Source: a phage. From it: a stretch of DNA of 64,000 nt. The stretch lies in sequence record PZ445488.1; one strand, written 5' to 3'. The translations under genes were made by a program, and so were the position numbers. The notes under the pieces were generated by a model. That model saw only the letters and a list, made by a program, of their open reading frames with translations. It was not told where the DNA came from and did no database searches. Below, one piece after another: positions 1 to 21,743 of this stretch (its first letter is position 1; the number at the start of each line of letters is the position of its first letter).

Positions 1-699
1 AACATAATCAAAATCACGTTCAAACACATGGGCACTTACCATGGTATGAGTATAATCACCAACTTCTACACCGCATTCGTTAGCGATATAATGAAGTAAT
101 TTTCCTTGGAGATAAAAATCCAACTGCATAACAACAGCACAGTTCTGAGAACGCATATGACAGTGGGTATAAAGCTTACCATCACGAATATAATAAGTTA
201 CTGAGTCAGTACATGGATATTCAAGTGTTTCGTCCGAATCAAGCAAAGCCTGATCAGAACTTTCTAGAATTTGGAACACAACTCTTCGAGAGTTAGGTTT
301 TTCTTTAAGTTCTTTTAGAAGAGTTGGTAATTGGGCCGCAATGCGAGGACCATAGAAAGTGTTGAAGTTCGCCGGCAAAACATCTGATTTTGGTTTAGAA
401 ATAAATTTAGCGACATTAGGATATGCCTTAAACGCTTCTTCTGCGTTGGTACCACCAGAAATCATAAACTTCCAGAAGTCTTCGGCATATTCATAAGAGA
501 TGCGGTTAATACGTGGGTCGGTCATTTTGAATGATGATGGAGTGTCAACAACTACTGTCATAGACCCAATTTCATTACAACGTCCAATACGAGAATCAGT
601 TACGAATTCCGGGTTTTCTAAAATTTCACGATTGACTGCTTTAAATGCGGTTTGAAAATCTGCGGCTTTGATATATTTCATTGTGTTATGTTTTCCCAT
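1..699 (-). CDS. 42: dNMP hydroxymethylase-family protein (thymidylate-synthase fold; gp42-like), 3' end beyond window
   Basis: Minus-strand ORF from ATG 697-699 (GAGG about 5 nt upstream) running off the window start, so absent from the ORF track. Translation MGKHNTMKYIKAADF...PCTDSVTYYIRDGKLYTHCHMRSQN...GDYTHTMVSAHVFERDFDYV matches TS/dCMP-hydroxymethylase motifs. Confidence 0.6.
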   Translation of the reverse strand, partial: MGKHNTMKYIKAADFQTAFKAVNREILENPEFVTDSRIGRCNEIGSMTVVVDTPSSFKMTDPRINRISYEYAEDFWKFMISGGTNAEEAFKAYPNVAKFISKPKSDVLPANFNTFYGPRIAAQLPTLLKELKEKPNSRRVVFQILESSDQALLDSDETLEYPCTDSVTYYIRDGKLYTHCHMRSQNCAVVMQLDFYLQGKLLHYIANECGVEVGDYTHTMVSAHVFERDFDYV

Positions 700-741
700 G
701 TTTACCTCAATACAATTTATTATATACTCAATTCATAAAGC

Positions 742-981
742 TTATTTGAATTTCTTGGCAATGTTGATATAACGTAAAGCTTCAGAATCTATACTTCCAA
801 GAACACTATGAAGAAATGCATCAGCGTAGTATTCCAATTGAACAGGTTCTTTAATCACTTTAGCCGCTTTGGTTTCAAACAGGCCCATCAGGGCCTTTTT
901 AAGAATTTGTTCGTTAGTGTTCAGTTTCATAGTCAAAATCTCTTCGTTAAGTTTATAATTAAAACTTTTTCTAGAAATCAT
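742..981 (-). CDS. hypothetical protein (79 aa)
   Basis: ORF track; lies between the gp42-like gene and the U32 gene; no motif recognised; not membrane-like, so not an obvious Imm. Confidence 0.4.
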   Translation of the reverse strand: MISRKSFNYKLNEEILTMKLNTNEQILKKALMGLFETKAAKVIKEPVQLEYYADAFLHSVLGSIDSEALRYINIAKKFK

Positions 982-2138
982 TCCGGGTACCTCAAAGCGT
1001 CATCAGAGCTAGTTATATCAATAATAGATATGGAGTTTTCTGCTAACCCGTTTTTAGATAATTGACGTTTATAATATCTTTCACAATATGTACACGTCGT
1101 CCCGCAGATTTCATTAGCACAATCGAAATCTGGATGTCTGAACCACCTTTTTTCTAAAAAGCCATCTAACAAAGAGGTTTCAATATTTACTGTATGTGAA
1201 AACTCAGTTTCGTTTTCAAGAGTGAAAATAGTCTCTAAAGGCTTCCACAGTTCTAACAAATTACCTTCAAACTTTTCAGAAGCGTATGCTTCAAGAACTT
1301 TCAAAATGTAGTCTGTGCTACCTGTACGTCCTGAAACTTTGAATTGAGTGATACCAATATCATTATAAAGTTTCAAATCTTGAGGACGAACAAAACGAGT
1401 TCTCAGCCAGTTAAATGGGTCTGTATCACGAGCTTTAATACAGTGTTGCATTGGATATCCATTTAAGGATTTAGCATCATCAGCGGTAACATCAGTACTA
1501 TGGAAAATATAGCAAGAGTCACGATAGCTACAATGTGTTGTATACCCTTTACCAGCATTAGAACAGAACTCATTTACAAGAACTTCAAATATTATATTGT
1601 TCTTATTGCAAAACTCTGCTGCACGCTTCAGGAAAGAAACTGAACGGTTCTTATGAATTCCGCAGCAGACCTTTTTGATATTATATTGGTCATGCAAGTA
1701 TTTGATTTGAGTTACAGCATCGACATGTAGAATTGTTGAAACTTCAATCTCAATATCTTTATTGACTTCACGAACAATTTCCATAACAACAGGGTTAGCG
1801 ATAGTAATACGCCATACGCCTATTGACCAAAGATACTGAACATAATCCTGAATAGCTTTCTTCTTCCACTCAACTAGTTCTCTTTTTGAACCAGGATTTA
1901 TCGTGTTGAGTGTATAGTTAAAGCAAATACCTAATTCGTTACAACGTTTAACGTAATCTTCTAACATCTTTTTGTCAACGTCAGGAAGCCTAAAATCAGG
2001 TCTGGCTGCTACAAAAGCCATTTCTCTTGTAGAGCCGTATACTTCGTTTATCAAGCTATTAGGATAAGTTTTATTGAGCTCTACGATTTTATCAAGAAGA
2101 GCTAAATCAAAATTCGTTCCGATTTTAAAAGTATTCAT
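978..2138 (-). CDS. peptidase-U32-family protein (Fe-S, TrhP/RlhA/UbiU-like putative hydroxylase fold)
   Basis: 386 aa; ATG at 2138. Segments ANPVVMEIVREV, IFEVLVNEFCSNAGKGYTTHC and GITQFKVSGRTGS parallel U32 blocks (SDPGLIMLVRE, ELEIFVHGALC.AYSGRC, GVHSLKIEGRTKS); Cys-rich C-terminus CANEICGTTCTYC. Confidence 0.6.
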   Translation of the reverse strand: MNTFKIGTNFDLALLDKIVELNKTYPNSLINEVYGSTREMAFVAARPDFRLPDVDKKMLEDYVKRCNELGICFNYTLNTINPGSKRELVEWKKKAIQDYVQYLWSIGVWRITIANPVVMEIVREVNKDIEIEVSTILHVDAVTQIKYLHDQYNIKKVCCGIHKNRSVSFLKRAAEFCNKNNIIFEVLVNEFCSNAGKGYTTHCSYRDSCYIFHSTDVTADDAKSLNGYPMQHCIKARDTDPFNWLRTRFVRPQDLKLYNDIGITQFKVSGRTGSTDYILKVLEAYASEKFEGNLLELWKPLETIFTLENETEFSHTVNIETSLLDGFLEKRWFRHPDFDCANEICGTTCTYCERYYKRQLSKNGLAENSISIIDITSSDDALRYPE

Positions 2139-2195
2139 TTTTTTTGCATCTCACGTTAATTGATGCGATGGTTTTTGCAGGTCTTACTTAAATTA

Positions 2196-2597
2196 TTATA
2201 GATTAGGTTTATATGATTTAAATGTTTCGAATTCGCCTTTATTCATAAGAGCTTTGAATTCGTCAGGACGCATAGCTTTGTCGTCGATAATCCAATCATA
2301 TACTGGTTTATGTGTTAGCAAATTATGGTACTTCAAGCCAATGTTTGCCAAGTTCTGAATCAGACTTGGGAGAATGTCAATTGCTATACGACCAGGACCT
2401 ACTGACTTCATACCACGAGCCGTGTAAAGCGTTATGGTATGCCCTGCATCATACAGGGCATTAATGGCAGACACCATTTCGACGTCTGGTTTGAAGTTCA
2501 CGTAATCACGATTGTTATTCCATTCCGTGATGCAATCATCGATATCAAAACAAAGATTAAGCATGTTTTCTACATGGTGCATTAGATTCGTTCCCAT
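2196..2597 (-). CDS. HAD-superfamily phosphatase (sugar-phosphate phosphatase candidate)
   Basis: 133 aa; HAD motif I FDIDDCIT and TARG motif; ATG at 2597 or 2582 (ATGA-type overlap with upstream stop). Confidence 0.6.
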   Translation of the reverse strand: MGTNLMHHVENMLNLCFDIDDCITEWNNNRDYVNFKPDVEMVSAINALYDAGHTITLYTARGMKSVGPGRIAIDILPSLIQNLANIGLKYHNLLTHKPVYDWIIDDKAMRPDEFKALMNKGEFETFKSYKPNL

Positions 2598-4270
2598 TGA
2601 TGAGTGATATCGCCACCGATTGGACGATAGGAAACACCAGTTTCTTTATCAGTTAGTACCCATTTACCAGGATTTTTTGTAATCAGAGTAGCCGTTACAG
2701 GTTCTGCTACGTCATAACTAATAGAGCCGTCTTGAAGTACACGGCCCATGTTATGTAATTGCTTAGTCAGAAGTTCCATACCTTTATAATATGCGGCCAC
2801 CGCTTTAAGTGGATTATTCTTGAAATAACCACCTAATGCAATCCAGATAATTGCTACTGCCAAATGATGATACTCATTAAACGAACTCATCTTTCCATAT
2901 TTGTAAACTAATGGATTGATGTTAATAGTCACATTACAAGTTGTTTCATCAATAGTAAACTGACCCCAGGTCGGATTAGCATTGAATTCATCATAACCTG
3001 AAACAGCATAAAGCACTTTAGCTTCATCGTACAATTTTGGCCCGTAAATCTTGGTTTCACCAAAATATCCACGAGGGTCGATAAACTTGACTTCACCATT
3101 ATCAGTAATCATAGTATTACTGAAGTTCGGGTCGCCGTGAATAACAGAGTACTGTCCCTGAGAACGGTTATGATAACGAATAAGATGTTCTAAAGCTTGT
3201 TTCAACATTGGCTTCAGACGTCCAATCTTAGTGTAGTTCACGTGTGTGATTTTACCAAATGAATCAATCAATGGCTGAATGCTTTCACAACGATCAATAA
3301 CTTTCGTATAGAACTCTTTAGTGAAATCACGGCGAACAGTTTCAGGACTTACAAAATAAGTGTCTGTGCTGAATTTCAGTGCATCTAAAATTGCATCAAC
3401 AATTTGTGGACGAGCAAGACTTGATTTGGATTTAATATATTCAAATGCCGGCTTACCTTTAATGCGTTCCATAATAAAGTGGCCGCCAGGATGATAACTT
3501 ACAATCCGTGGAACTGAATCTGATTTAACTTTCTTATACCAATTGACTTCATCTTTTTGAAGTGCAACGCCCTGTTCTGTTAAAGCAATCTTTGTTACCG
3601 TTTCTTCGCCAATTTCAACTGCATTAAAACTACGATTAAGTTCACGAACTTCATGAGCTTTTTCAAGTTTAGGCATATCACCTAAATCAATTAGATTCAT
3701 AAGCTCTGATTTATTGAATGCACTACCGTAAAGGAATTCTACGAAATCACGTCCTTTGCAGTATTCGTGAATTTCCTCATCAGTAGAACCCATGTAGAAT
3801 TCCCAGTCTTTGAACTGATAAATTCCTACAACATTACCACCTGTTGAACCTACGTTAGTGATATTTTCACCATCGAAATTATATCGACATTCATCACCCT
3901 TAACATAGATTGCGTTAACATTCCAAGACCATGAACCAAAGTCAGGAATAATATCACACCAGTTAACAATTACGTTATGGCCATCTAAATCTTTGTATAA
4001 TTTAGCAAGAGCATAAGCAGAACCATACGCTTCATCAACTGTACGAATAGTCACATTGAACCCTTCTTGCTCGCAATAAGCTCGAACAGTTTCAGCAAAT
4101 TTTGAATGAACTACTACAATAATTTCATCTGCGCCAAGGTCAGAATAAATTGTATACAAATTGCTCAGAATAGTGTCTTGTTTATAGTTAACAAGCACCT
4201 TAGGAATATGGTGCGTTATTGGATACAAACGAGTTGCCAGTCCAGCACCAAGAATAACAGCTTTTTTCAT
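2582..4270 (-). CDS. bifunctional sugar-1-phosphate nucleotidyltransferase (N-term, RmlA/LicC/MurU-like) and anomeric sugar kinase (C-term, APH/choline-kinase fold)
   Basis: 562 aa; N-term KAVILGAGLATRLYPIT (GxGTRLxPxT pyrophosphorylase motif); C-term VIHGDPNFSNTMI...FIDPRGYFG (APH-type catalytic loop and DFG-like motif); ATG at 4270 with GAGGA RBS. Confidence 0.7.
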   Translation of the reverse strand: MKKAVILGAGLATRLYPITHHIPKVLVNYKQDTILSNLYTIYSDLGADEIIVVVHSKFAETVRAYCEQEGFNVTIRTVDEAYGSAYALAKLYKDLDGHNVIVNWCDIIPDFGSWSWNVNAIYVKGDECRYNFDGENITNVGSTGGNVVGIYQFKDWEFYMGSTDEEIHEYCKGRDFVEFLYGSAFNKSELMNLIDLGDMPKLEKAHEVRELNRSFNAVEIGEETVTKIALTEQGVALQKDEVNWYKKVKSDSVPRIVSYHPGGHFIMERIKGKPAFEYIKSKSSLARPQIVDAILDALKFSTDTYFVSPETVRRDFTKEFYTKVIDRCESIQPLIDSFGKITHVNYTKIGRLKPMLKQALEHLIRYHNRSQGQYSVIHGDPNFSNTMITDNGEVKFIDPRGYFGETKIYGPKLYDEAKVLYAVSGYDEFNANPTWGQFTIDETTCNVTININPLVYKYGKMSSFNEYHHLAVAIIWIALGGYFKNNPLKAVAAYYKGMELLTKQLHNMGRVLQDGSISYDVAEPVTATLITKNPGKWVLTDKETGVSYRPIGGDITHQWERI

Positions 4271-4311
4271 GTTGTGGTCCTCATTGGTAAGTAGGTGTAT
4301 TGTACACTATT

Positions 4312-4455
4312 CTAGTTAAAGCATTCATACTTTGCTTGTAGTCCAATCATAATCCATCCGATTATAAGAGTCGGAATCATTACTGGAGCCGTTAAGCTCC
4401 AGTAGATAGTCATGACAAGCATCAATAGTAAAAGTCCTATTGTTATTGCTTTCAT
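4312..4455 (-). CDS. small hydrophobic protein (47 aa, 2 predicted TM segments)
   Basis: Hand-translated MKAITIGLLLMLVMTIYWSLTAPVMIPTLIIGWIMIGLQAKYECFN; its ATG overlaps the stop of the SIS gene (ATGA); below the ORF-track size cutoff. Confidence 0.35.
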   Translation of the reverse strand: MKAITIGLLLLMLVMTIYWSLTAPVMIPTLIIGWIMIGLQAKYECFN

Positions 4456-5087
4456 TGTTCGCCTCGTAACATGGCACCTAGTGCACCACCAGGGTGGAAC
4501 TTAAGGAAGTCATTAGAGGTAAATCCGCGTTCAGACGAAAGGTTGATAGCGAACGTATCGATAAGCGCTAACAACAATGTAGTGGACATTGTAGGAGCCA
4601 GAGAATTCTCATCAACCTCTACCGCGATACCGGTACAGAATGTATAATCAAAAAGAGCTTCGTATTCTTGTGGAATGTCCGGGTTACAATGCAACAGAAT
4701 CTGTTTGACATTTGGACGAATCATTTTAAGATGCTTAGCCACGCCTATCATTTCTTCAGTCTTACCAGAACGACTAATATGAATCAACACATCATTAGGC
4801 GCAATGAATCCTGCATCACCGTGAGAATAATGCCCAGTGTTCAAGTACATACTCGGGATACCGAGCGAAGCAAATGTCTCAGAAGCTTTAGTTGCAATAT
4901 TAGCATTCTTACCAACACCTGTAATAATTACTCGGCTTTCATAATTACTAAGTCCAGGGCGTCGAAGAGTTTCTAGAATAGCATTATAACGAGCAGGGTT
5001 TTGACTAATTACTTTGGCCATAGCGGCCAAAGAAGAAGCTTGTTTTATGATTGCGTCAATAGCGATAGTAATAGGAGTAGTTTTCAT
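4452..5087 (-). CDS. SIS-domain sugar-phosphate isomerase, KdsD/GutQ-type (arabinose-5-phosphate isomerase-like), no CBS domains
   Basis: 211 aa; VIITGVGKNANIATKASETFASLGIPS...HISRSGKTEE...LAPTMSTTLLLALIDTF...FHPGGALG aligns block-by-block with the KdsD SIS domain; ATG at 5087. Confidence 0.7.
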   Translation of the reverse strand: MKTTPITIAIDAIIKQASSLAAMAKVISQNPARYNAILETLRRPGLSNYESRVIITGVGKNANIATKASETFASLGIPSMYLNTGHYSHGDAGFIAPNDVLIHISRSGKTEEMIGVAKHLKMIRPNVKQILLHCNPDIPQEYEALFDYTFCTGIAVEVDENSLAPTMSTTLLLALIDTFAINLSSERGFTSNDFLKFHPGGALGAMLRGEQ

Positions 5088-5127
5088 ATTTCTCTCATTT
5101 AATTAGTTTACCGTCCATGACATTATA

Positions 5128-7839
5128 TCAAAAATCGAACATATCGAACAGAGATGCTTTCTTCTCGTAATCGAGTTTCGCTGCTGATGTGAATCCTTCA
5201 AGTGGTTTAATAAATGTCTTCTCAAGGAGAACAGTGTAGTCCATCCAATGAAGTACGTCGTCTTTAATTAAATCTGTGATTTCAGTACCAGAAGGCCATG
5301 CGATACATTTATCACCGAATGGGTTTCCATCACGTAAAGGCAGAACGTATACCTTTTCGCCTTCTACAACTTGTGGAGCATCAATATTACCTTTGATAGC
5401 TCTGTTATATGTCAGAATTCCACGAATATGGAACGGGCATTTAGGACCAGGGAATCCACCAACGTCATATTTAGCAATGTTATTCGCAGAAGATACCGAC
5501 GCGATGCTAATATAATTCAATTGACGGAATTCTTTTTCAAACTCTTTAAAATATTCTTGTAATGATTCTTCACCTTCTTGAAGCATACGACGAATACATT
5601 CTTTAAGAGCTTTCTGTACTGCTTTAGGGGTCGAAGATTTCTGTGTTTCGAGACCCATGATTTTGAGTTTAGGCTCAGCGTATCTGGTTCCTTCCATATC
5701 CCACACGTTTAATGCATAACGTTTCTTACCAGTCCAGAATCCACCAATACCTTTAGAACCGAGTGGAGGACCAGCAATAGCTTCTCGGTCCATGAACATC
5801 AAATGTTGCTTATTATTCATGTATTCACACATTTCACGGAAACCTCTATCAATAGCCGGTTCCATACGTTCACGAGCAAACTTATCTAAGAAGTCTACCC
5901 AATGGTTGGTATCACGGAATTTAGATTCACCAACCTTATCGATAATTTTATCAGCAGATACGTAAATAGAGTCTGTATCACCATAAAGAACGAAAGCTTC
6001 ACCTTCTGTACCACAAACTTCATTCAGATATTCATTAACTTTACGTTCAATCCACTGTAAAGCCATTTGCCCGAATGTTGTGATTGCAGTAGCATTACGC
6101 AAATCATAATAACGGAACCAAACGTTACCAAGTGCACCATAAAGCGAGTTGATGAGCAATTTACGGTTAATTTGTGCAGTCATACCTGCAACTTCAGTAC
6201 GTTGAGCTCTAAACAACATTTCATTAAGAGATTTAGCAGACAACTTTTTAATCTTTTCTTTAATCTCGTCAGTGAAGTCGAAACGATAATCAACATCTAA
6301 TGGTTCGTCAACAGAAAGATTAGGATTATGTAACGCCTCTTTAATTATTTCACCATTACGTTGAGCCGCAAGCATATAACCTTTATGTTCTTTACGTTGA
6401 TTAAAGACCTTAGTGATTTCAGTTGGAACTACACCATCACGGTCTTTATAATACATCATGCCGTTAGGAGAGCAACTGTACACATCTGAAGGACGTTCAG
6501 CGATTGCGTTAATATAATCATGCAATGGAGCTACTTTAAACGTTCCTGCTATTGTTTCTGGGCTAATATTCACTTGGCGAATAATACTTGGATACAGAGA
6601 TGTAAGGTCGAAACTCATTACATATTTGTATCGATTTGGAATAGGTTCCTTAACAAAAGCGCCAGGATAAGGTTGAACCGGGTGAGAACGACCTTGTGGA
6701 ATCACCTTGTTCTGCTCTTTAAGGCTATTAAAAATAATAGCATCCCATGTTTTAATTGGGCTGAACACAGATTGAATCTGTATCTTAGCATAATAACCCA
6801 TGTCCAAACTCAAGTTGATGAACTGGCGCTTAGCATCAATTTGCAATACACGATACACGTCGATAATGTTATAAGAAATATATCGTTGGTGATTGCTTTC
6901 ACGAAGCTTAGAAATAGGGCCGTCATATTTCAGTTTACCGACATTCAATTCAAATTCTGAAATGTAATCCAGAGAATACGACGGTTGGTTTGTGAAAGAG
7001 AATTTTTTGTAAAGGTCAATGTAATCAAGAACAGAAATACCGAACAATGTAATGATTTCACGAGAACCATACATGTTTTCGATAACTTTAACACGAGTTT
7101 TACGATGTGGTGATAAACGTTTCGCAGTAGATTCGCCAAAAATATTCTTGATTCGGTTATACACATATGGAATATCAAATGACTCAACGTTCCATCCGGT
7201 TAAAATGACAGGAGTTTTCTGTTGCCAGAAGTTGAGATATTCCATCAACAATTCTTTTTCGTTATCGAACGGCATATAAATGATTTTATCGATAATTTCG
7301 GATGGAACTTCATCACCACCTTGTTCTTGAAGCTTAGCCGCAATTTCGATAGACCATTCTTCTACATTACCATATGGAGAATTCAAAAGGTCGAATACGT
7401 AGAACCTGTCGTCAATTGAGTCATAATGGGTGATAGCATCAATCGGATGTTTTGCTTGTGACGGCTCAGGGAACCCATCCGGAGATGTTACTTCGATATC
7501 GAAGTTAGCCACACGAATTTTTGTATGGTCGTATTTGATTTCATAGTTATAAGTGTCAGACAAATACGACAATTTGAAATCGTCCATACCTAATGCTTCA
7601 AGACCGATATCTTCCATGCGTTTAATCCATTGGGAGGCATCACGCATATTAGCGAACAACTTACGAGTACACGGCTTACCGTAGATATCGAAATATTTCG
7701 TAGCCTGACTTTCTGGACAATGAGCAAACAATGATGGTTTATATTCTACTTCACGAGTACGTTCACGGCCATTAGAATCGATGTAACGTTCAAAAATTGA
7801 ATCACCAATCTGTTCAACCGTTAAGTAAAATTCTTTCAT
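5128..7839 (-). CDS. 43: DNA polymerase gp43 (family B, with 3'-5' exonuclease)
   Basis: 903 aa; N-terminus MKEFYLTVEQIGDSIFERYIDSNGRE and motifs YGDTDS and KILLNSLYG-like match the T4/RB69 polymerase (RB69 gp43 is 903 aa, from memory); ATG at 7839. Confidence 0.97.
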   Translation of the reverse strand: MKEFYLTVEQIGDSIFERYIDSNGRERTREVEYKPSLFAHCPESQATKYFDIYGKPCTRKLFANMRDASQWIKRMEDIGLEALGMDDFKLSYLSDTYNYEIKYDHTKIRVANFDIEVTSPDGFPEPSQAKHPIDAITHYDSIDDRFYVFDLLNSPYGNVEEWSIEIAAKLQEQGGDEVPSEIIDKIIYMPFDNEKELLMEYLNFWQQKTPVILTGWNVESFDIPYVYNRIKNIFGESTAKRLSPHRKTRVKVIENMYGSREIITLFGISVLDYIDLYKKFSFTNQPSYSLDYISEFELNVGKLKYDGPISKLRESNHQRYISYNIIDVYRVLQIDAKRQFINLSLDMGYYAKIQIQSVFSPIKTWDAIIFNSLKEQNKVIPQGRSHPVQPYPGAFVKEPIPNRYKYVMSFDLTSLYPSIIRQVNISPETIAGTFKVAPLHDYINAIAERPSDVYSCSPNGMMYYKDRDGVVPTEITKVFNQRKEHKGYMLAAQRNGEIIKEALHNPNLSVDEPLDVDYRFDFTDEIKEKIKKLSAKSLNEMLFRAQRTEVAGMTAQINRKLLINSLYGALGNVWFRYYDLRNATAITTFGQMALQWIERKVNEYLNEVCGTEGEAFVLYGDTDSIYVSADKIIDKVGESKFRDTNHWVDFLDKFARERMEPAIDRGFREMCEYMNNKQHLMFMDREAIAGPPLGSKGIGGFWTGKKRYALNVWDMEGTRYAEPKLKIMGLETQKSSTPKAVQKALKECIRRMLQEGEESLQEYFKEFEKEFRQLNYISIASVSSANNIAKYDVGGFPGPKCPFHIRGILTYNRAIKGNIDAPQVVEGEKVYVLPLRDGNPFGDKCIAWPSGTEITDLIKDDVLHWMDYTVLLEKTFIKPLEGFTSAAKLDYEKKASLFDMFDF

Positions 7840-19458: not shown

Positions 19459-19929
19459 TTAATCATGTTTCCACACCCCATCGGTATTTGACCAAAGTCG
19501 CTGATTATCTGATCCTCGCCACAGCTTTTTGGTCGGAAGATTTTTCTCATACTTCCCATCAATAATAACATCAACATATTTAAGCATTTCTAGCTGTTTA
19601 ATATCTTCAAACTTATATCCTGTCCACAACCAAATGCTTTTATTGGGATAAAGATTTTTTACTGTTTGAACAATGTAATGAATAACATCTCGGTTATCAG
19701 GATAGAGAGGGTCTCCTCCGGTTATAGTTAATCCTTCTATATAATCATTATTCAAACATTCAATTAATTGTTCTAGTGTTTCACCAGTGAATGGAATACC
19801 ATTTCTAGCGTTCCATGTTGATTTATTATAACACCCTTCGCATTTATGCAAACAACCTGTAACGAAAAGAACGACCCTACAACCAGGGCCATTCACAAAA
19901 TCGCAAGGATAAAATCTATCATAATTCAT
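19459..19929 (-). CDS. nrdG: anaerobic ribonucleotide reductase activating protein NrdG (radical SAM)
   Basis: 156 aa; Cys-rich N-terminus (CDFVNGPGCR, CLHKCEGC); same length as T4 NrdG. Confidence 0.9.
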   Translation of the reverse strand: MNYDRFYPCDFVNGPGCRVVLFVTGCLHKCEGCYNKSTWNARNGIPFTGETLEQLIECLNNDYIEGLTITGGDPLYPDNRDVIHYIVQTVKNLYPNKSIWLWTGYKFEDIKQLEMLKYVDVIIDGKYEKNLPTKKLWRGSDNQRLWSNTDGVWKHD

Positions 19930-21743
19930 TGGTGTTTAACCCTATGCATGATTTCTTTATTTTTACCGAGATTAAATCCGCGTTCGTTCGGATTTCCAAG
20001 ATAACCGCATGTTCTTCTTATGGTGTTCATCTTTTTAGGATCAGTTTCTCCACAAACTGAACAAACAAATCCGTTTTCAGTAGGAGTCATTTCATGGGTA
20101 CTTCCACACGTAAAACATTTATCTACTGGCATATTAACACCAAAATAATCTAAATGTTGTGCAGCATAATCCCACACAGCCTCAAGACCTTTTAGGTTAT
20201 TTTTCATATCAGGAAGTTCAACATAAGAAATGTGACCACCTGTCGCAATGAAATGATATGGCGCTTCACGAGAAATCTTTTCAAACGGAGTAATATTTTC
20301 TTCTACTGAAACATGGAAACTATTAGTGTACCAGCCTTTATCAGTGACATCCTTTACACTTCCATATTTTTCTGTATCAAGTTTACAGAAACGATAACAC
20401 AAGTTTTCAGCAGGAGTAGAATATAAACTAAAAGCAAATCCAGTTCTTTCAGTCCACTGTTTAAGATGAGCATTCATTTTAGTTAAAATTTCTTGTCCAA
20501 TATCACGACCAACAAGAATATTCAATTCATGAATACCAATATATCCTAAAGACACTGAACTTCTACCGTTTTTAAATAACTCAATTATATCATCGTCGGG
20601 TTTAAGACGAACACCAAATGCACCTTCTTGGTAAAGAATAGGAGCAACAGTAGCTTTAACTCCTTTTAAGGAACTAATTCTACACATCAAGGCTTCAAAG
20701 CACAGATCCATTCGTTCATTAAATAACTCAACAAATTTCTGTTCATTGAACTGTGTTCCAATATAAGAATCTAACGCGATGCGAGGAAGATTCAGTGTTA
20801 CAACACCGAGATTATTACGTCCATCAAGAATTTCATTACCAGTCGAATCTTTCCATACACTCAAGAAACTACGGCAGCCCATTGGAGAAACAGGAATAGA
20901 TGAGCCGGTGATAGCTTTATTATTCTTAACAGAAATAATGTCAGGATACATTCTTTTGCTTGCACACTCTAGAGCGAGTTGCTTAATATCATAGTTCGGA
21001 TCGTCTTTATAAAGATTAACACCCTCTTCGACAAACATAACAAGTTTAGGGAAAATAGGAGTTATTCCATCACGACCAAGACCTTTAATCCGATTTTTCA
21101 GAATTGCTTTCTGAATCATTCGTTCGGTCCAATCAGTTCCAGTACCAAATGTAATTGTTACAAAAGGCGTTTGCCCGTTTGAACTAAAAAGAGTATTTAC
21201 CTCATACTCATAAGCTTGAAATGCGTCATATACATCTTTTTCTGTTTTAGATTGAGCATAATTCAGAATGTCTGGTATTTGCCATTTTTCTGCATCTTCA
21301 ACATGTTTAGCGTATGTACGTTTAACATAAGGAGAAAGAACTTTATCGACATTCGCAAATGTAGTTCCGCCGTACTGATGTGAAGCAACTTGTGCAGTAA
21401 TTTGTGCCATAATTGCAGTAGCAACACCAATCGATTTAGGCGTTTCAATTTGAGCATTGCCCAATTTAAATCCGTTCTCAAGCATCCCCTTTAAATCGAC
21501 TAAACAGCAATTGGTAAACGGAAGAGCAGGAGAATAATCAATATCATGCATGTGGATAATTCCACTTTCATGCGCATTCATAATAAAAGACGGGACCATA
21601 TTTTTGGCAATGTGCTTAGACACAATACCAGCCATAAGGTCCCGTTGAGTTGGAAAAACACGAGAATCTTTATTAGCATTCTCGTTCAAAAGATCTTTAT
21701 TAGTTTTATAAATTAATCCTTCAATTTCTTTTTCAATTTTCAT
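19926..21743 (-). CDS. nrdD: anaerobic ribonucleoside-triphosphate reductase NrdD
   Basis: 605 aa; C-terminal Cys cluster (CFTCGSTHE...CSVCG) and glycyl-radical motif RTCGYLG. Confidence 0.95.
   Translation of the reverse strand: MKIEKEIEGLIYKTNKDLLNENANKDSRVFPTQRDLMAGIVSKHIAKNMVPSFIMNAHESGIIHMHDIDYSPALPFTNCCLVDLKGMLENGFKLGNAQIETPKSIGVATAIMAQITAQVASHQYGGTTFANVDKVLSPYVKRTYAKHVEDAEKWQIPDILNYAQSKTEKDVYDAFQAYEYEVNTLFSSNGQTPFVTITFGTGTDWTERMIQKAILKNRIKGLGRDGITPIFPKLVMFVEEGVNLYKDDPNYDIKQLALECASKRMYPDIISVKNNKAITGSSIPVSPMGCRSFLSVWKDSTGNEILDGRNNLGVVTLNLPRIALDSYIGTQFNEQKFVELFNERMDLCFEALMCRISSLKGVKATVAPILYQEGAFGVRLKPDDDIIELFKNGRSSVSLGYIGIHELNILVGRDIGQEILTKMNAHLKQWTERTGFAFSLYSTPAENLCYRFCKLDTEKYGSVKDVTDKGWYTNSFHVSVEENITPFEKISREAPYHFIATGGHISYVELPDMKNNLKGLEAVWDYAAQHLDYFGVNMPVDKCFTCGSTHEMTPTENGFVCSVCGETDPKKMNTIRRTCGYLGNPNERGFNLGKNKEIMHRVKHQ

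What the first reader, a model, noticed from the sequence alone, without database searches (positions are those of the whole stretch)
2196..5087. Phage-encoded nucleotide-sugar biosynthesis module inserted between DNA polymerase (43) and the gp42-like gene: candidate NDP-D-arabinose pathway for hmC hypermodification
Three adjacent early genes supply the chemistry to make an activated pentose. The KdsD/GutQ-type SIS isomerase lacks CBS domains and would interconvert ribulose-5-P and arabinose-5-P. The HAD phosphatase carries motif FDIDDC. The 562-aa fusion joins an RmlA/LicC/MurU-like sugar-1-P nucleotidyltransferase (GAGLATRLYPIT) to an APH/choline-kinase-fold anomeric kinase (HGDPNFSN, IDPRG). 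This mirrors AmgK-MurU and the heptose GmhA/HldE/GmhB logic (isomerase, 1-kinase, phosphatase, nucleotidyltransferase). The module sits where T4 has imm/beta-gt, and no alpha-glucosyltransferase lies between 47 and 55. Arabinosyl-hmC has been reported for RB69, whose polymerase this gp43 appears to match, but to my knowledge the donor pathway was not assigned there.
Basis: partly seen in the sequence, partly recalled or inferred. Interest (0 to 1): 0.85.

Follow-up and report, generated by a model that had tools for sequence, protein, structure and literature searches.

The report
Known phage UDP-arabinose DNA-modification genes
These three genes of an RB69-like coliphage make the activated arabinose that the phage attaches to its DNA cytosines; the pathway is real but was published in 2025-2026, and the modified base is 5-hydroxycytosine, not hydroxymethylcytosine.

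Summary
Three co-directional minus-strand genes lie next to DNA polymerase gp43. They encode a CBS-less SIS arabinose-5-phosphate isomerase (4452-5087), a 562-aa nucleotidyltransferase/kinase fusion (2582-4270) and a small HAD phosphatase (2196-2582).

The window is a Mosigvirus. The three proteins are 100%, 99% and 98% identical to those of phage HY126. According to a 2026 NAR paper, the HY126 fusion (AfhE) and phosphatase (AfhF) were shown biochemically to turn arabinose-5-P into UDP-arabinofuranose. The AfhF crystal structure is PDB 9IQW.

The acceptor base is wrong. The "gp42-like" gene (1-699) is an O2/flavin-dependent 5-hydroxy-dCMP synthase, so arabinose sits on 5-hydroxycytosine.

One new lead lies just outside the coordinates. 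A highly conserved U32-family gene (978-2138) sits inside the cluster. In related phages it is translationally coupled to a chorismate mutase, and it is absent from the Acinetobacter phage loci examined. It may provide an O2-independent, prephenate-dependent route to 5-hydroxycytosine. This is untested.

The parts
4452..5087 (-). Single-domain (CBS-less) SIS arabinose-5-phosphate isomerase, the orthologue of RB69 gp55. It would convert ribulose-5-P to arabinose-5-P.
   Evidence: Pfam SIS 41.2 bits against a cut-off of 25. TIGR00393 KpsF/GutQ E 2.2e-32 and KdsD E 1.2e-30, covering the SIS half only. PDB 3ETN E 5.5e-25, 5UQI and 2XHZ. phrog_5670 E 2e-116. 211/211 identical to HY126 XAN60481.
4315..4455 (-). 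47-aa ORF of unknown function (RB69 ORF054c / HY126 XAN60480). It overlaps the isomerase stop codon.
   Evidence: tblastn gives 100% identity to the HY126 47-aa protein. phrog_3610 E 4.5e-27, unknown function. No role is assigned.
2582..4270 (-). Bifunctional AfhE orthologue (RB69 gp52:53). The N-terminal sugar-1-P nucleotidyltransferase spans about aa 1-200. The C-terminal APH/choline-kinase-fold kinase spans about aa 205-510.
2196..2582 (-). AfhF orthologue (RB69 gp51). A small HAD-superfamily, Mg-dependent phosphatase that converts arabinose-1,5-bisphosphate to arabinose-1-P.
   Evidence: 126/128 identical to HY126 XAN60478. PDB 9IQW E 5.8e-87 and 1XPJ E 3.7e-10, with DIDDCIT aligned to DLDGTLT. 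TIGR01689 E 3.7e-13. The start codon overlaps the fusion's stop codon as TAATG.
978..2138 (-). U32-family protein (RB69 gp50). It is part of the cluster and has no experimentally assigned role that I could find; PMC13326640 Table 1 gives it a computational label. I propose it is an O2-independent pyrimidine C5 hydroxylase.
   Evidence: PF01136 42.2 bits against a cut-off of 22.4. AF2 pLDDT 92.4, with the U32 protein 5D88 as top PDB fold hit. Ten invariant Cys in 60 homologues. The best hhalign match among E. coli U32 proteins is RlhA, at 81.6% probability. 79-87% identical across phage genera.
742..981 (-). 79-aa ORF (RB69 ORF049c) of unknown function. Its start overlaps the U32 stop codon by 4 nt.
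   Evidence: phrog_8601 E 1.5e-50, unknown function. Homologues occur in Yersinia TG1 and Serratia 92A1, with a conserved YYxDAFxHS motif. It is not related to chorismate mutase.
1..699 (-). It makes the acceptor base. The window start removes its last 5 codons.
   Evidence: 97.4% identical to HY126 XAN60475. PDB 9IQC/9IR2/9IQU E 1e-156. In the alignment with ThyA 4DQ1, N replaces D169 and D replaces N177. The O2- and flavin-dependent activity is shown in PMC13326640.

Best explanation
The three genes form the UDP-D-arabinofuranose branch of the arabinosyl-5-hydroxycytosine DNA hypermodification system of Mosigvirus (RB69-like) phages.

The pathway has four steps:
1. The SIS isomerase diverts ribulose-5-P to arabinose-5-P. 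This step is predicted.
2. The kinase half of the 562-aa fusion phosphorylates C1 to give arabinose-1,5-bisphosphate. This is reported for the 99%-identical HY126 AfhE.
3. The HAD phosphatase removes the 5-phosphate to give arabinose-1-P. This is reported for the 98%-identical HY126 AfhF.
4. The N-terminal nucleotidyltransferase half of the fusion condenses arabinose-1-P with UTP to give UDP-arabinose. This is reported for AfhE.

Phage arabinosyltransferases (RB69 gp46:47 and gp3), which lie outside this window, then transfer arabinose onto 5-hydroxycytosine in DNA. That base is made at the nucleotide level by the neighbouring thymidylate-synthase homologue at 1-699.

Assigning this to the window rests on near-identity and synteny. 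None of the enzymes from this window was assayed.
For: Identity and synteny:
- Window 900-5200 is 97.4% identical to HY126 and 96.6% to RB69, with the same gene order.
- The proteins are 211/211, 557/562 and 126/128 identical to those of HY126.

Family and fold checks made here:
- SIS/KdsD/GutQ profiles and PDB API structures.
- NTP_transferase above the Pfam cut-off.
- The kinase catalytic set K/E/HxDxxxxN/D is invariant in 58 homologues.
- The HAD protein matches solved structures 9IQW (E 5.8e-87) and 1XPJ.

Gene-fusion evidence: proteins of about 910 aa carry HAD + SIS + NTP_transferase + kinase-like domains in one chain, and a 761-aa protein carries SIS + NT + kinase.

Literature:
- PMC13326640 sections 24, 25 and 27.
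- PMC13390438.
- PMC6024577.
Against: - No enzyme from this window was assayed.
- The two primary papers with the AfhE/AfhF biochemistry and phage genetics could not be read here (He et al. 2026, Nat Chem Biol; Mahler et al. 2025, Cell Host Microbe). I rely on the summary in PMC13326640.
- The isomerase step is predicted only. Some related clusters (JS98, Proteus Pm5461, Shewanella Thanatos-2) lack a SIS homologue in the fetched locus, so the host KdsD/GutQ may suffice.
- PMC13390438 still calls the full pathway 'not yet characterized'.
- The nucleotide used (UTP) was not tested here.
Confidence: 0.92

Rival explanations
1. One reading: the module makes NDP-D-arabinose to decorate 5-hydroxymethylcytosine, as in T4-type hmC systems, and the pathway is so far unassigned.
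For: Thomas et al. 2018 reported 'arabinosyl-hmC' for RB69 (PMC6024577). The module occupies the position of T4 imm/beta-gt, and there is no alpha-gt between genes 47 and 55.
Against: The adjacent thymidylate-synthase homologue is 97% identical to the solved O2/flavin-dependent 5-hydroxy-dCMP synthase of HY126 and has the D169N signature. NMR and MS work re-assigned the RB69 base to arabosyl-5-hydroxycytosine, meaning arabinosyl-5-hydroxycytosine, and calls the hmC assignment erroneous. The pathway has been assigned.
Confidence: 0.04
2. The module supplies arabinose-5-P or an activated sugar for something other than DNA. Examples would be boosting host KDO/LPS synthesis or decorating virion or cell-surface glycans, in the manner of capsule-biosynthesis loci.
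For: The HAD protein's best curated family is the 'capsule biosynthesis phosphatase' TIGR01689, and PDB 9IQW is titled 'Capsule biosynthesis protein'. KdsD-type isomerases feed KDO synthesis. The giant-virus-like contigs that carry the four-domain fusion also carry a Glyco_transf_25 gene.
Against: In seven T4-like phages of seven host genera the genes sit next to the 5hodCMP synthase, and in the annotated loci also next to DNA glycosyltransferase candidates and a nucleotide kinase. RB69 and DLP3 DNA carries arabose, meaning arabinose, on every cytosine. The family hits are far below the curated cut-offs, so they show homology, not the same function.
Confidence: 0.03

Closest known systems
Afh / arabinosyl-5-hydroxycytosine system of Escherichia phage HY126 and RB69 (AfhE, AfhF; RB69 gp55, gp52:53, gp51)
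   Same: The genes, their order and their sequences are the same: 98-100% protein identity and 97% DNA identity. The solved AfhF structure 9IQW matches at E 5.8e-87.
   Different: Nothing substantive differs. The window is a different isolate. It gives 100% matches to partial phage CEV1 records for the fusion and ORF49. The fusion ORF is intact here, whereas the RB69 reference splits it through a sequencing error.
Heptose nucleotide-sugar pathway GmhA / HldE / GmhB (and HddC)
   Same: The step logic is the same: SIS isomerase, anomeric kinase acting on a sugar phosphate, HAD phosphatase removing the distal phosphate, then nucleotidyltransferase. The kinase and transferase are fused in one protein, as in HldE. 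HddC is among the structural hits.
   Different: The substrate is a pentose rather than a heptose. The kinase has an APH/choline-kinase fold, not the ribokinase-like fold of HldE (established knowledge). The HAD enzyme is of the small 1XPJ type. The product decorates DNA, not LPS.
AmgK-MurU and LicA-LicC (kinase plus nucleotidyltransferase salvage pairs)
   Different: In those pairs the two enzymes are separate proteins that act on unphosphorylated substrates, and no phosphatase step is needed. Here the kinase acts on a sugar 5-phosphate and the two enzymes are fused.
T4 glucosyl-hmC system (gp42, alpha-gt, beta-gt)
   Same: The genomic neighbourhood between genes 43 and uvsX is the same. The overall strategy is also the same: a modified dCMP made by a thymidylate-synthase homologue, followed by post-replicative glycosylation.
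   Different: The base is 5-hydroxy-C (O2/flavin chemistry) rather than hydroxymethyl-C (folate chemistry). The sugar donor is phage-made UDP-arabinose instead of host UDP-glucose. There are no alpha-gt or beta-gt homologues.

Membership tests
HY126/RB69 arabinosyl-5hoC (Afh) gene cluster | Orthologues of the isomerase, AfhE fusion and AfhF phosphatase, in the same order between gene 43 and the 5hodCMP synthase | tested here: met
   Protein identities of 211/211, 557/562 and 126/128 to HY126. The gene order is identical to HY126 and RB69.
HY126/RB69 arabinosyl-5hoC (Afh) gene cluster | Virion DNA carries arabinosylated 5-hydroxycytosine, and the enzymes make UDP-arabinose | not testable with these tools
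   This needs LC-MS/NMR of the DNA and enzyme assays. It is reported for RB69, NP and HY126 in PMC13326640 and PMC13390438.
KdsD/GutQ-type arabinose-5-phosphate isomerase | SIS domain most similar to the KpsF/GutQ/KdsD subfamily | tested here: met
   PF01380 scores 41.2 bits against a cut-off of 25. TIGR00393 gives E 2.2e-32 and KdsD NF008141 gives E 1.2e-30. PDB API structures 3ETN, 5UQI and 2XHZ all match.
KdsD/GutQ-type arabinose-5-phosphate isomerase | C-terminal tandem CBS domains of full-length KdsD/GutQ, with a score above the equivalog cut-off | tested here: not met
   The protein is 211 aa and the match covers profile positions 47-202 of 328. Scores of 107-113 bits fall below the cut-offs of 204-505. 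It resembles the single-domain API 3ETN instead.
Sugar-1-phosphate nucleotidyltransferase (RmlA/LicC/MurU, PF00483) | N-terminal GxGxR...K signature and the Rossmann-like NT fold | tested here: met
APH / choline-kinase (eukaryotic-like kinase) fold | Catalytic loop HxDxxxxN, metal-binding Asp, ATP-binding Lys and Glu, and the bilobal kinase fold | tested here: met
APH / choline-kinase (eukaryotic-like kinase) fold | Pfam PF01636 score above the gathering threshold | tested here: not met
   APH scores 17.0 bits against a cut-off of 23.2. Several distant homologues do carry a precomputed PF01636 hit. Membership therefore rests on fold and motifs, not on the curated sequence threshold.
HAD-superfamily phosphatase | Motif I DxDx(T/V), a later DD motif, and the HAD Rossmannoid fold | tested here: met
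   FDIDDCIT aligns with DLDGTLT of 1XPJ, and IIDDKA aligns with YIDDRA. The protein is 98% identical to solved structure 9IQW. TIGR01689 gives E 3.7e-13, which is below its cut-off. There is no Pfam HAD hit.
T4-type dCMP hydroxymethylase / glucosyl-hmC system | A folate-type thymidylate-synthase homologue (D169 retained) together with alpha- or beta-glucosyltransferase | tested here: not met
   The window's homologue has N at the D169 position and is 97% identical to the 5hodCMP synthase 9IQC. No ORF of alpha-gt size lies between genes 47 and 55.
U32 prephenate-dependent hydroxylases (RlhA, TrhP, UbiU/UbiV), considered for the neighbouring gene 978-2138 | Peptidase_U32 domain with conserved Fe-S cysteines | tested here: inconclusive
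   PF01136 is above its cut-off. hhalign against RlhA gives 81.6% probability and aligns C203-x5-C209-YIFHS with RlhA C-x6-C-YISHA. Ten Cys are invariant. The canonical motif is altered, and matches to UbiU and TrhP are weak. Cluster binding cannot be tested.
U32 prephenate-dependent hydroxylases (RlhA, TrhP, UbiU/UbiV), considered for the neighbouring gene 978-2138 | Dependence on prephenate and activity without O2 | not testable with these tools
   The evidence is contextual only. A CM_2 chorismate mutase is coupled to U32 in five related phage genera. A DAHP synthase lies next to a metagenomic homologue. The window itself has no chorismate mutase next to U32.

The most novel reading that the evidence does not exclude
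The U32-family gene immediately downstream of the module (978-2138; RB69 gp50) may be an O2-independent, prephenate-dependent pyrimidine C5 hydroxylase. It would give these phages an anaerobic route to 5-hydroxycytosine, in parallel with the O2/flavin-dependent thymidylate-synthase homologue. This would mirror the phage's own pairing of aerobic and anaerobic ribonucleotide reductases, and the host's UbiIHF/UbiUV and TrhO/TrhP pairs.

Supporting points:
- Among E. coli U32 proteins, the best profile match is RlhA, the 23S rRNA 5-hydroxycytidine synthase.
- In phages of Enterobacter, Yersinia, Serratia, Proteus and Shewanella hosts, the gene is followed by a bona fide chorismate mutase, which makes prephenate.
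- It is absent from the two Acinetobacter phage clusters examined and from all listed tblastn hits.
- It is the most conserved protein of the cluster.
- Metagenomic homologues sit beside dCMP deaminase, thymidylate kinase, DNA glycosyltransferase candidates and a DAHP synthase.

No paper I could search makes this link. Two key papers could not be read.
Probability: 0.35. Interest if true: 0.75.

Novelty: already known. Interest (0 to 1): 0.25.

Why it matters
The finding itself re-derives from raw sequence a pathway that specialists have now published. That pathway is a phage-encoded route to UDP-arabinofuranose, a sugar nucleotide that E. coli does not make. The phage uses it to coat every cytosine of its DNA and so evade restriction and CRISPR.

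The adjacent U32 / chorismate-mutase lead could matter. The published cytosine hydroxylase needs O2, yet these phages infect gut bacteria. An O2-independent hydroxylase would explain how the modification is made without oxygen. It would also extend prephenate-dependent U32 chemistry from RNA and quinones to DNA precursors. Finally, it would provide a small phage enzyme for the in vitro reconstitution of U32 activity, which the 2024 PNAS paper says had not yet been achieved.

Tried and rejected
- Is ORF49 (742-981) a diverged chorismate mutase? No. BLASTP shows no similarity and hhalign gives 0.1% probability. Yersinia TG1 and Serratia 92A1 carry both genes.
- A MAFFT alignment of the phage U32 with UbiU, UbiV, RlhA and TrhP placed the Cys motif wrongly. 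hhalign gave the better register, so I do not use the MAFFT Cys equivalences.
- A PDB sequence search with U32 found nothing.
- A profile search of PDB with six full-length fusion sequences also returned only nucleotidyltransferases.
- The AFDB library was unavailable, so the U32 subfamily could not be placed by structure.
- The promoter and terminator scan of 600-5400 gave fewer sites than shuffled controls, so nothing is claimed about transcription.
- He et al. 2026 and Mahler et al. 2025 are not held. Searches for Afh gene names gave nothing further.
- A strict rule that every E. coli phage with this cluster has U32 fails, because Dhakavirus JS98 lacks it.
Full report
**Observation.** On the minus strand, downstream of DNA polymerase gp43 (5128-7839), lie these ORFs:
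- a 211-aa ORF (4452-5087)
- a 47-aa ORF (4315-4455)
- a 562-aa ORF (2582-4270)
- a 133-aa ORF (2196-2597)

All quoted motifs are present. The last gene most likely starts at 2582, giving 128 aa. There the sequence TAATG overlaps the stop codon of the 562-aa gene. That start matches the HY126 and RB69 annotations and the crystallised construct. Two further genes separate the module from the "gp42-like" gene: a 386-aa U32-family protein (978-2138) and a 79-aa ORF (742-981). The gp42-like gene itself occupies 1-699, and the window start removes its last five codons.

**What the proteins are.** I tested each protein here.
- Isomerase: it has a SIS domain above the Pfam cut-off. Its best curated matches are KpsF/GutQ/KdsD, covering only the SIS half, so it has no CBS domains. 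Its best solved relatives are arabinose-5-phosphate isomerases (3ETN, 5UQI, 2XHZ).
- Fusion, N-terminal half: it passes the NTP_transferase threshold.
- Fusion, C-terminal half: it is only weakly APH-like by sequence (17 bits against 23.2).
- Fusion, conserved residues: the kinase catalytic set K227, E241, H378-G-D380, N385 and D398, and the transferase residues K24 and D106, are invariant down to 25% identity.
- Phosphatase: it has no Pfam hit. It matches TIGR01689 (E 3.7e-13), the HAD structure 1XPJ (E 3.7e-10, with motif I aligned) and PDB 9IQW (E 5.8e-87).

**Source and prior knowledge.** The window is a Mosigvirus. Bases 900-5200 are 97.4% identical to Escherichia phage HY126 and 96.6% to RB69, with the same gene order. 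The fusion and ORF49 give 100% matches to partial records of phage CEV1. The isomerase, fusion and phosphatase are 211/211, 557/562 and 126/128 identical to the HY126 proteins.

The literature has assigned this pathway.
- Thomas et al. 2018 already proposed RB69 ORF055c and the repaired ORF53_52c as UDP-arabinose candidates (PMC6024577).
- Lee et al. 2026 (PMC13326640) propose the route Ru5P to Araf5P (gp55), to Araf1,5P (gp52:53 C-terminal domain), to Araf1P (gp51), to UDP-Araf (gp52:53 N-terminal domain).
- The same paper states that He et al. 2026 showed HY126 AfhE to be a dual arabinose-5-P kinase and UDP-arabinose pyrophosphorylase, and AfhF to be an Mg-dependent phosphatase.
- PDB 9IQW is evidently that AfhF.

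I could not read He et al. or Mahler et al. 2025, so the biochemistry is cited second-hand.

**An independent line of evidence.** Homologues of the fusion include proteins of about 910 aa with HAD, SIS, NTP_transferase and kinase-like domains in one chain. There is also a 761-aa SIS + transferase + kinase protein. These fusions link all four activities into one pathway. The contigs that carry them have XRN exonuclease, a Ulp1-type protease and SNF2 genes. They look like giant-virus or eukaryotic DNA.

The acceptor base is not hydroxymethylcytosine. The thymidylate-synthase homologue at 1-699 is 97% identical to the solved HY126 enzyme (9IQC, 9IR2, 9IQU). In the alignment with ThyA it has Asn at the D169 position and Asp at the N177 position. 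That is the signature Lee et al. give for 5-hydroxy-dCMP synthases. They showed the RB69 enzyme incorporates 18O from O2 and carries a flavin. RB69-type DNA carries arabinose joined by an ether bond to 5-hydroxycytosine, and the earlier hmC assignment is called erroneous.

**A lead outside the coordinates.** The U32 gene (978-2138) has no experimentally assigned role that I could find. Lee et al. list RB69 gp50 only as "sugar or heterocycle reductase". The characterised U32 members are RlhA (5-hydroxycytidine 2501 in 23S rRNA), TrhP (5-hydroxyuridine in tRNA) and UbiU/UbiV. All are implicated in O2-independent hydroxylation with prephenate as oxygen donor (PMC10990095).

I found the following:
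1. The phage protein passes the U32 Pfam threshold. It models confidently (pLDDT 92.4), and the U32 structure 5D88 is its top solved fold match.
2. Ten cysteines are invariant in 60 homologues. They include a C-terminal C340-x4-C345-x3-C349-x2-C352 motif that the E. coli proteins lack.
3. Among the three E. coli proteins compared by profile, the family matches RlhA best: 81.6% probability, E 1e-5, 206 columns. The alignment pairs THC-SYRDSC-YIFHS with ALCVAYSGQCYISHA. UbiU and TrhP match weakly; UbiV was not compared.
4. tblastn finds the gene in 222 phage records. The hosts named in the counts and the 60 listed rows are Enterobacterales, plus Shewanella. The AfhE-like fusion is found in 374 records, including 57 Acinetobacter phages. 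The DLP1 locus, and the DLP3 cluster as published, go straight from the phosphatase to the synthase with no U32.
5. In Enterobacter Entb_45, Yersinia TG1, Serratia 92A1, Proteus Pm5461 and Shewanella Thanatos-2, a small AroQ chorismate mutase lies downstream of U32 (immediately after it, or after one small ORF). It scores above the Pfam CM_2 cut-off in all five, and a profile of four of them matches PDB 1YBZ at E 7e-14. In Entb_45 the genes overlap by 4 nt. In Thanatos-2 the U32-mutase pair sits at a different place in the cluster, yet the two stay together.
6. U32 is the most conserved protein of the cluster. It is 79-87% identical across genera, against 42-72% for the fusion and 60-83% for the (partly truncated) DNA polymerase matches.
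7. Metagenomic homologues at 48-58% identity sit in large phage-like contigs. Their neighbours include dCMP deaminase, thymidylate kinase, UDG, deoxynucleoside kinase, a TAGT-like glycosyltransferase with UDP-galactopyranose mutase, and a DAHP synthase in one contig.

**Interpretation of the lead.** The published cytosine hydroxylase requires O2, and the phage also carries the anaerobic ribonucleotide reductase NrdDG (19459-21743). The simplest reading is that U32, fed by host or phage chorismate mutase, is an anaerobic route to 5-hydroxycytosine.

Several points count against it or remain open:
- No U32 enzyme had been reconstituted in vitro as of the 2024 paper.
- The canonical Cys motif is altered.
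- Mosigviruses lack the mutase. In its place they carry the unrelated 79-aa ORF49.
- Dhakavirus JS98, which also infects E. coli, has the cluster without U32.
- Two primary papers that could not be read may already address the gene.
- No paper in the searchable library links U32 or chorismate mutase to this system.
- A 2025 paper shows phages re-using the prephenate-dependent CmoA for DNA modification, which is a relevant precedent.

**Verdict.** The sugar-pathway interpretation is correct in its steps but wrong about the base, and it is already published. I score the finding low for novelty. I record the U32 / chorismate-mutase hypothesis as the most novel reading not excluded, with probability about 0.35.

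Noticed in passing
window 978-2138 (-): A U32-family gene lies inside the DNA-modification cluster. Its family has ten invariant cysteines, including a C-terminal C340-x4-C345-x3-C349-x2-C352 motif; the last three have radical-SAM-like CX3CX2C spacing. Its best E. coli profile match is RlhA, the 5-hydroxycytidine synthase. It is the most conserved protein of the cluster across phage genera (79-87%).
   Followed up: yes
L003 6158-6397; L015 6230-6523; L016 6240-6497; L017 8134-8391; L019 10242-10628: Related T4-like phages of Enterobacter, Yersinia, Serratia, Shewanella and Proteus encode a small AroQ chorismate mutase just downstream of U32. It scores above the Pfam CM_2 cut-off in all five. 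In Entb_45 the genes overlap by 4 nt, and in Thanatos-2 the pair sits at a different position in the cluster but stays together. Chorismate mutase makes prephenate, the proposed oxygen donor of U32 hydroxylases.
   Followed up: yes
window 742-981 (-): A 79-aa ORF (RB69 ORF049c, phrog_8601) starts 4 nt inside the U32 stop codon and occupies the slot where other genera have chorismate mutase. It is unrelated to chorismate mutase. It has a conserved YYxDAFxHS motif, and homologues coexist with the mutase in Yersinia TG1 and Serratia 92A1. Its function is unknown.
   Followed up: partly
L008, L012/L013, L009/L010, L011, L014 (metagenomic contigs): Homologues of the phage U32 at 48-58% identity occur in large phage-like contigs, some with DNA polymerase III alpha. 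Their neighbours include dCMP deaminase, thymidylate kinase, UDG, NT5C, deoxynucleoside kinase and radical SAM/SPASM genes. One contig (L011) has a DAHP synthase next to U32. Another (L014) has a TAGT-like glycosyltransferase and UDP-galactopyranose mutase, with no thymidylate-synthase homologue within 8 kb.
   Followed up: partly
P0200, P0202, P0205, P0207, P0208, P0213, P0214 (loci L021-L024): Proteins of about 890-955 aa join HAD, SIS, nucleotidyltransferase and kinase-like domains in one chain; all four were confirmed here for P0200, P0205 and P0213. They sit on contigs with XRN exonuclease, Ulp1 protease, SNF2 and Glyco_transf_25 genes, and one comes from a eukaryote transcriptome. They look like giant-virus or eukaryotic versions of the whole pentose-activation pathway.
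   Followed up: partly
L018 (JS98), L019 (Proteus Pm5461), L017 (Thanatos-2): Some related clusters have the fusion and the HAD gene but no detectable SIS isomerase in the fetched locus. JS98 also lacks U32. The isomerase and U32 therefore look like dispensable or replaceable parts of the system.
   Followed up: no
window 19459-21743 (-): The anaerobic ribonucleotide reductase genes nrdG and nrdD are present, as in RB69 and T4. The phage is thus equipped to replicate without oxygen even though its published cytosine hydroxylase needs O2.
   Followed up: partly
window 742-4270: The fusion protein and ORF49 give 100% tblastn matches to partial GenBank records of Escherichia phage CEV1 (KM389389, KM389390). 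The window probably comes from CEV1 or a near-identical isolate rather than from RB69 itself.
   Followed up: no
window 4315-4455 (-): A conserved 47-aa ORF (phrog_3610) lies between the isomerase and the fusion and overlaps the isomerase stop codon. The RB69 record notes similarity to the T4 42-imm intercistronic region. Its function is unknown.
   Followed up: no
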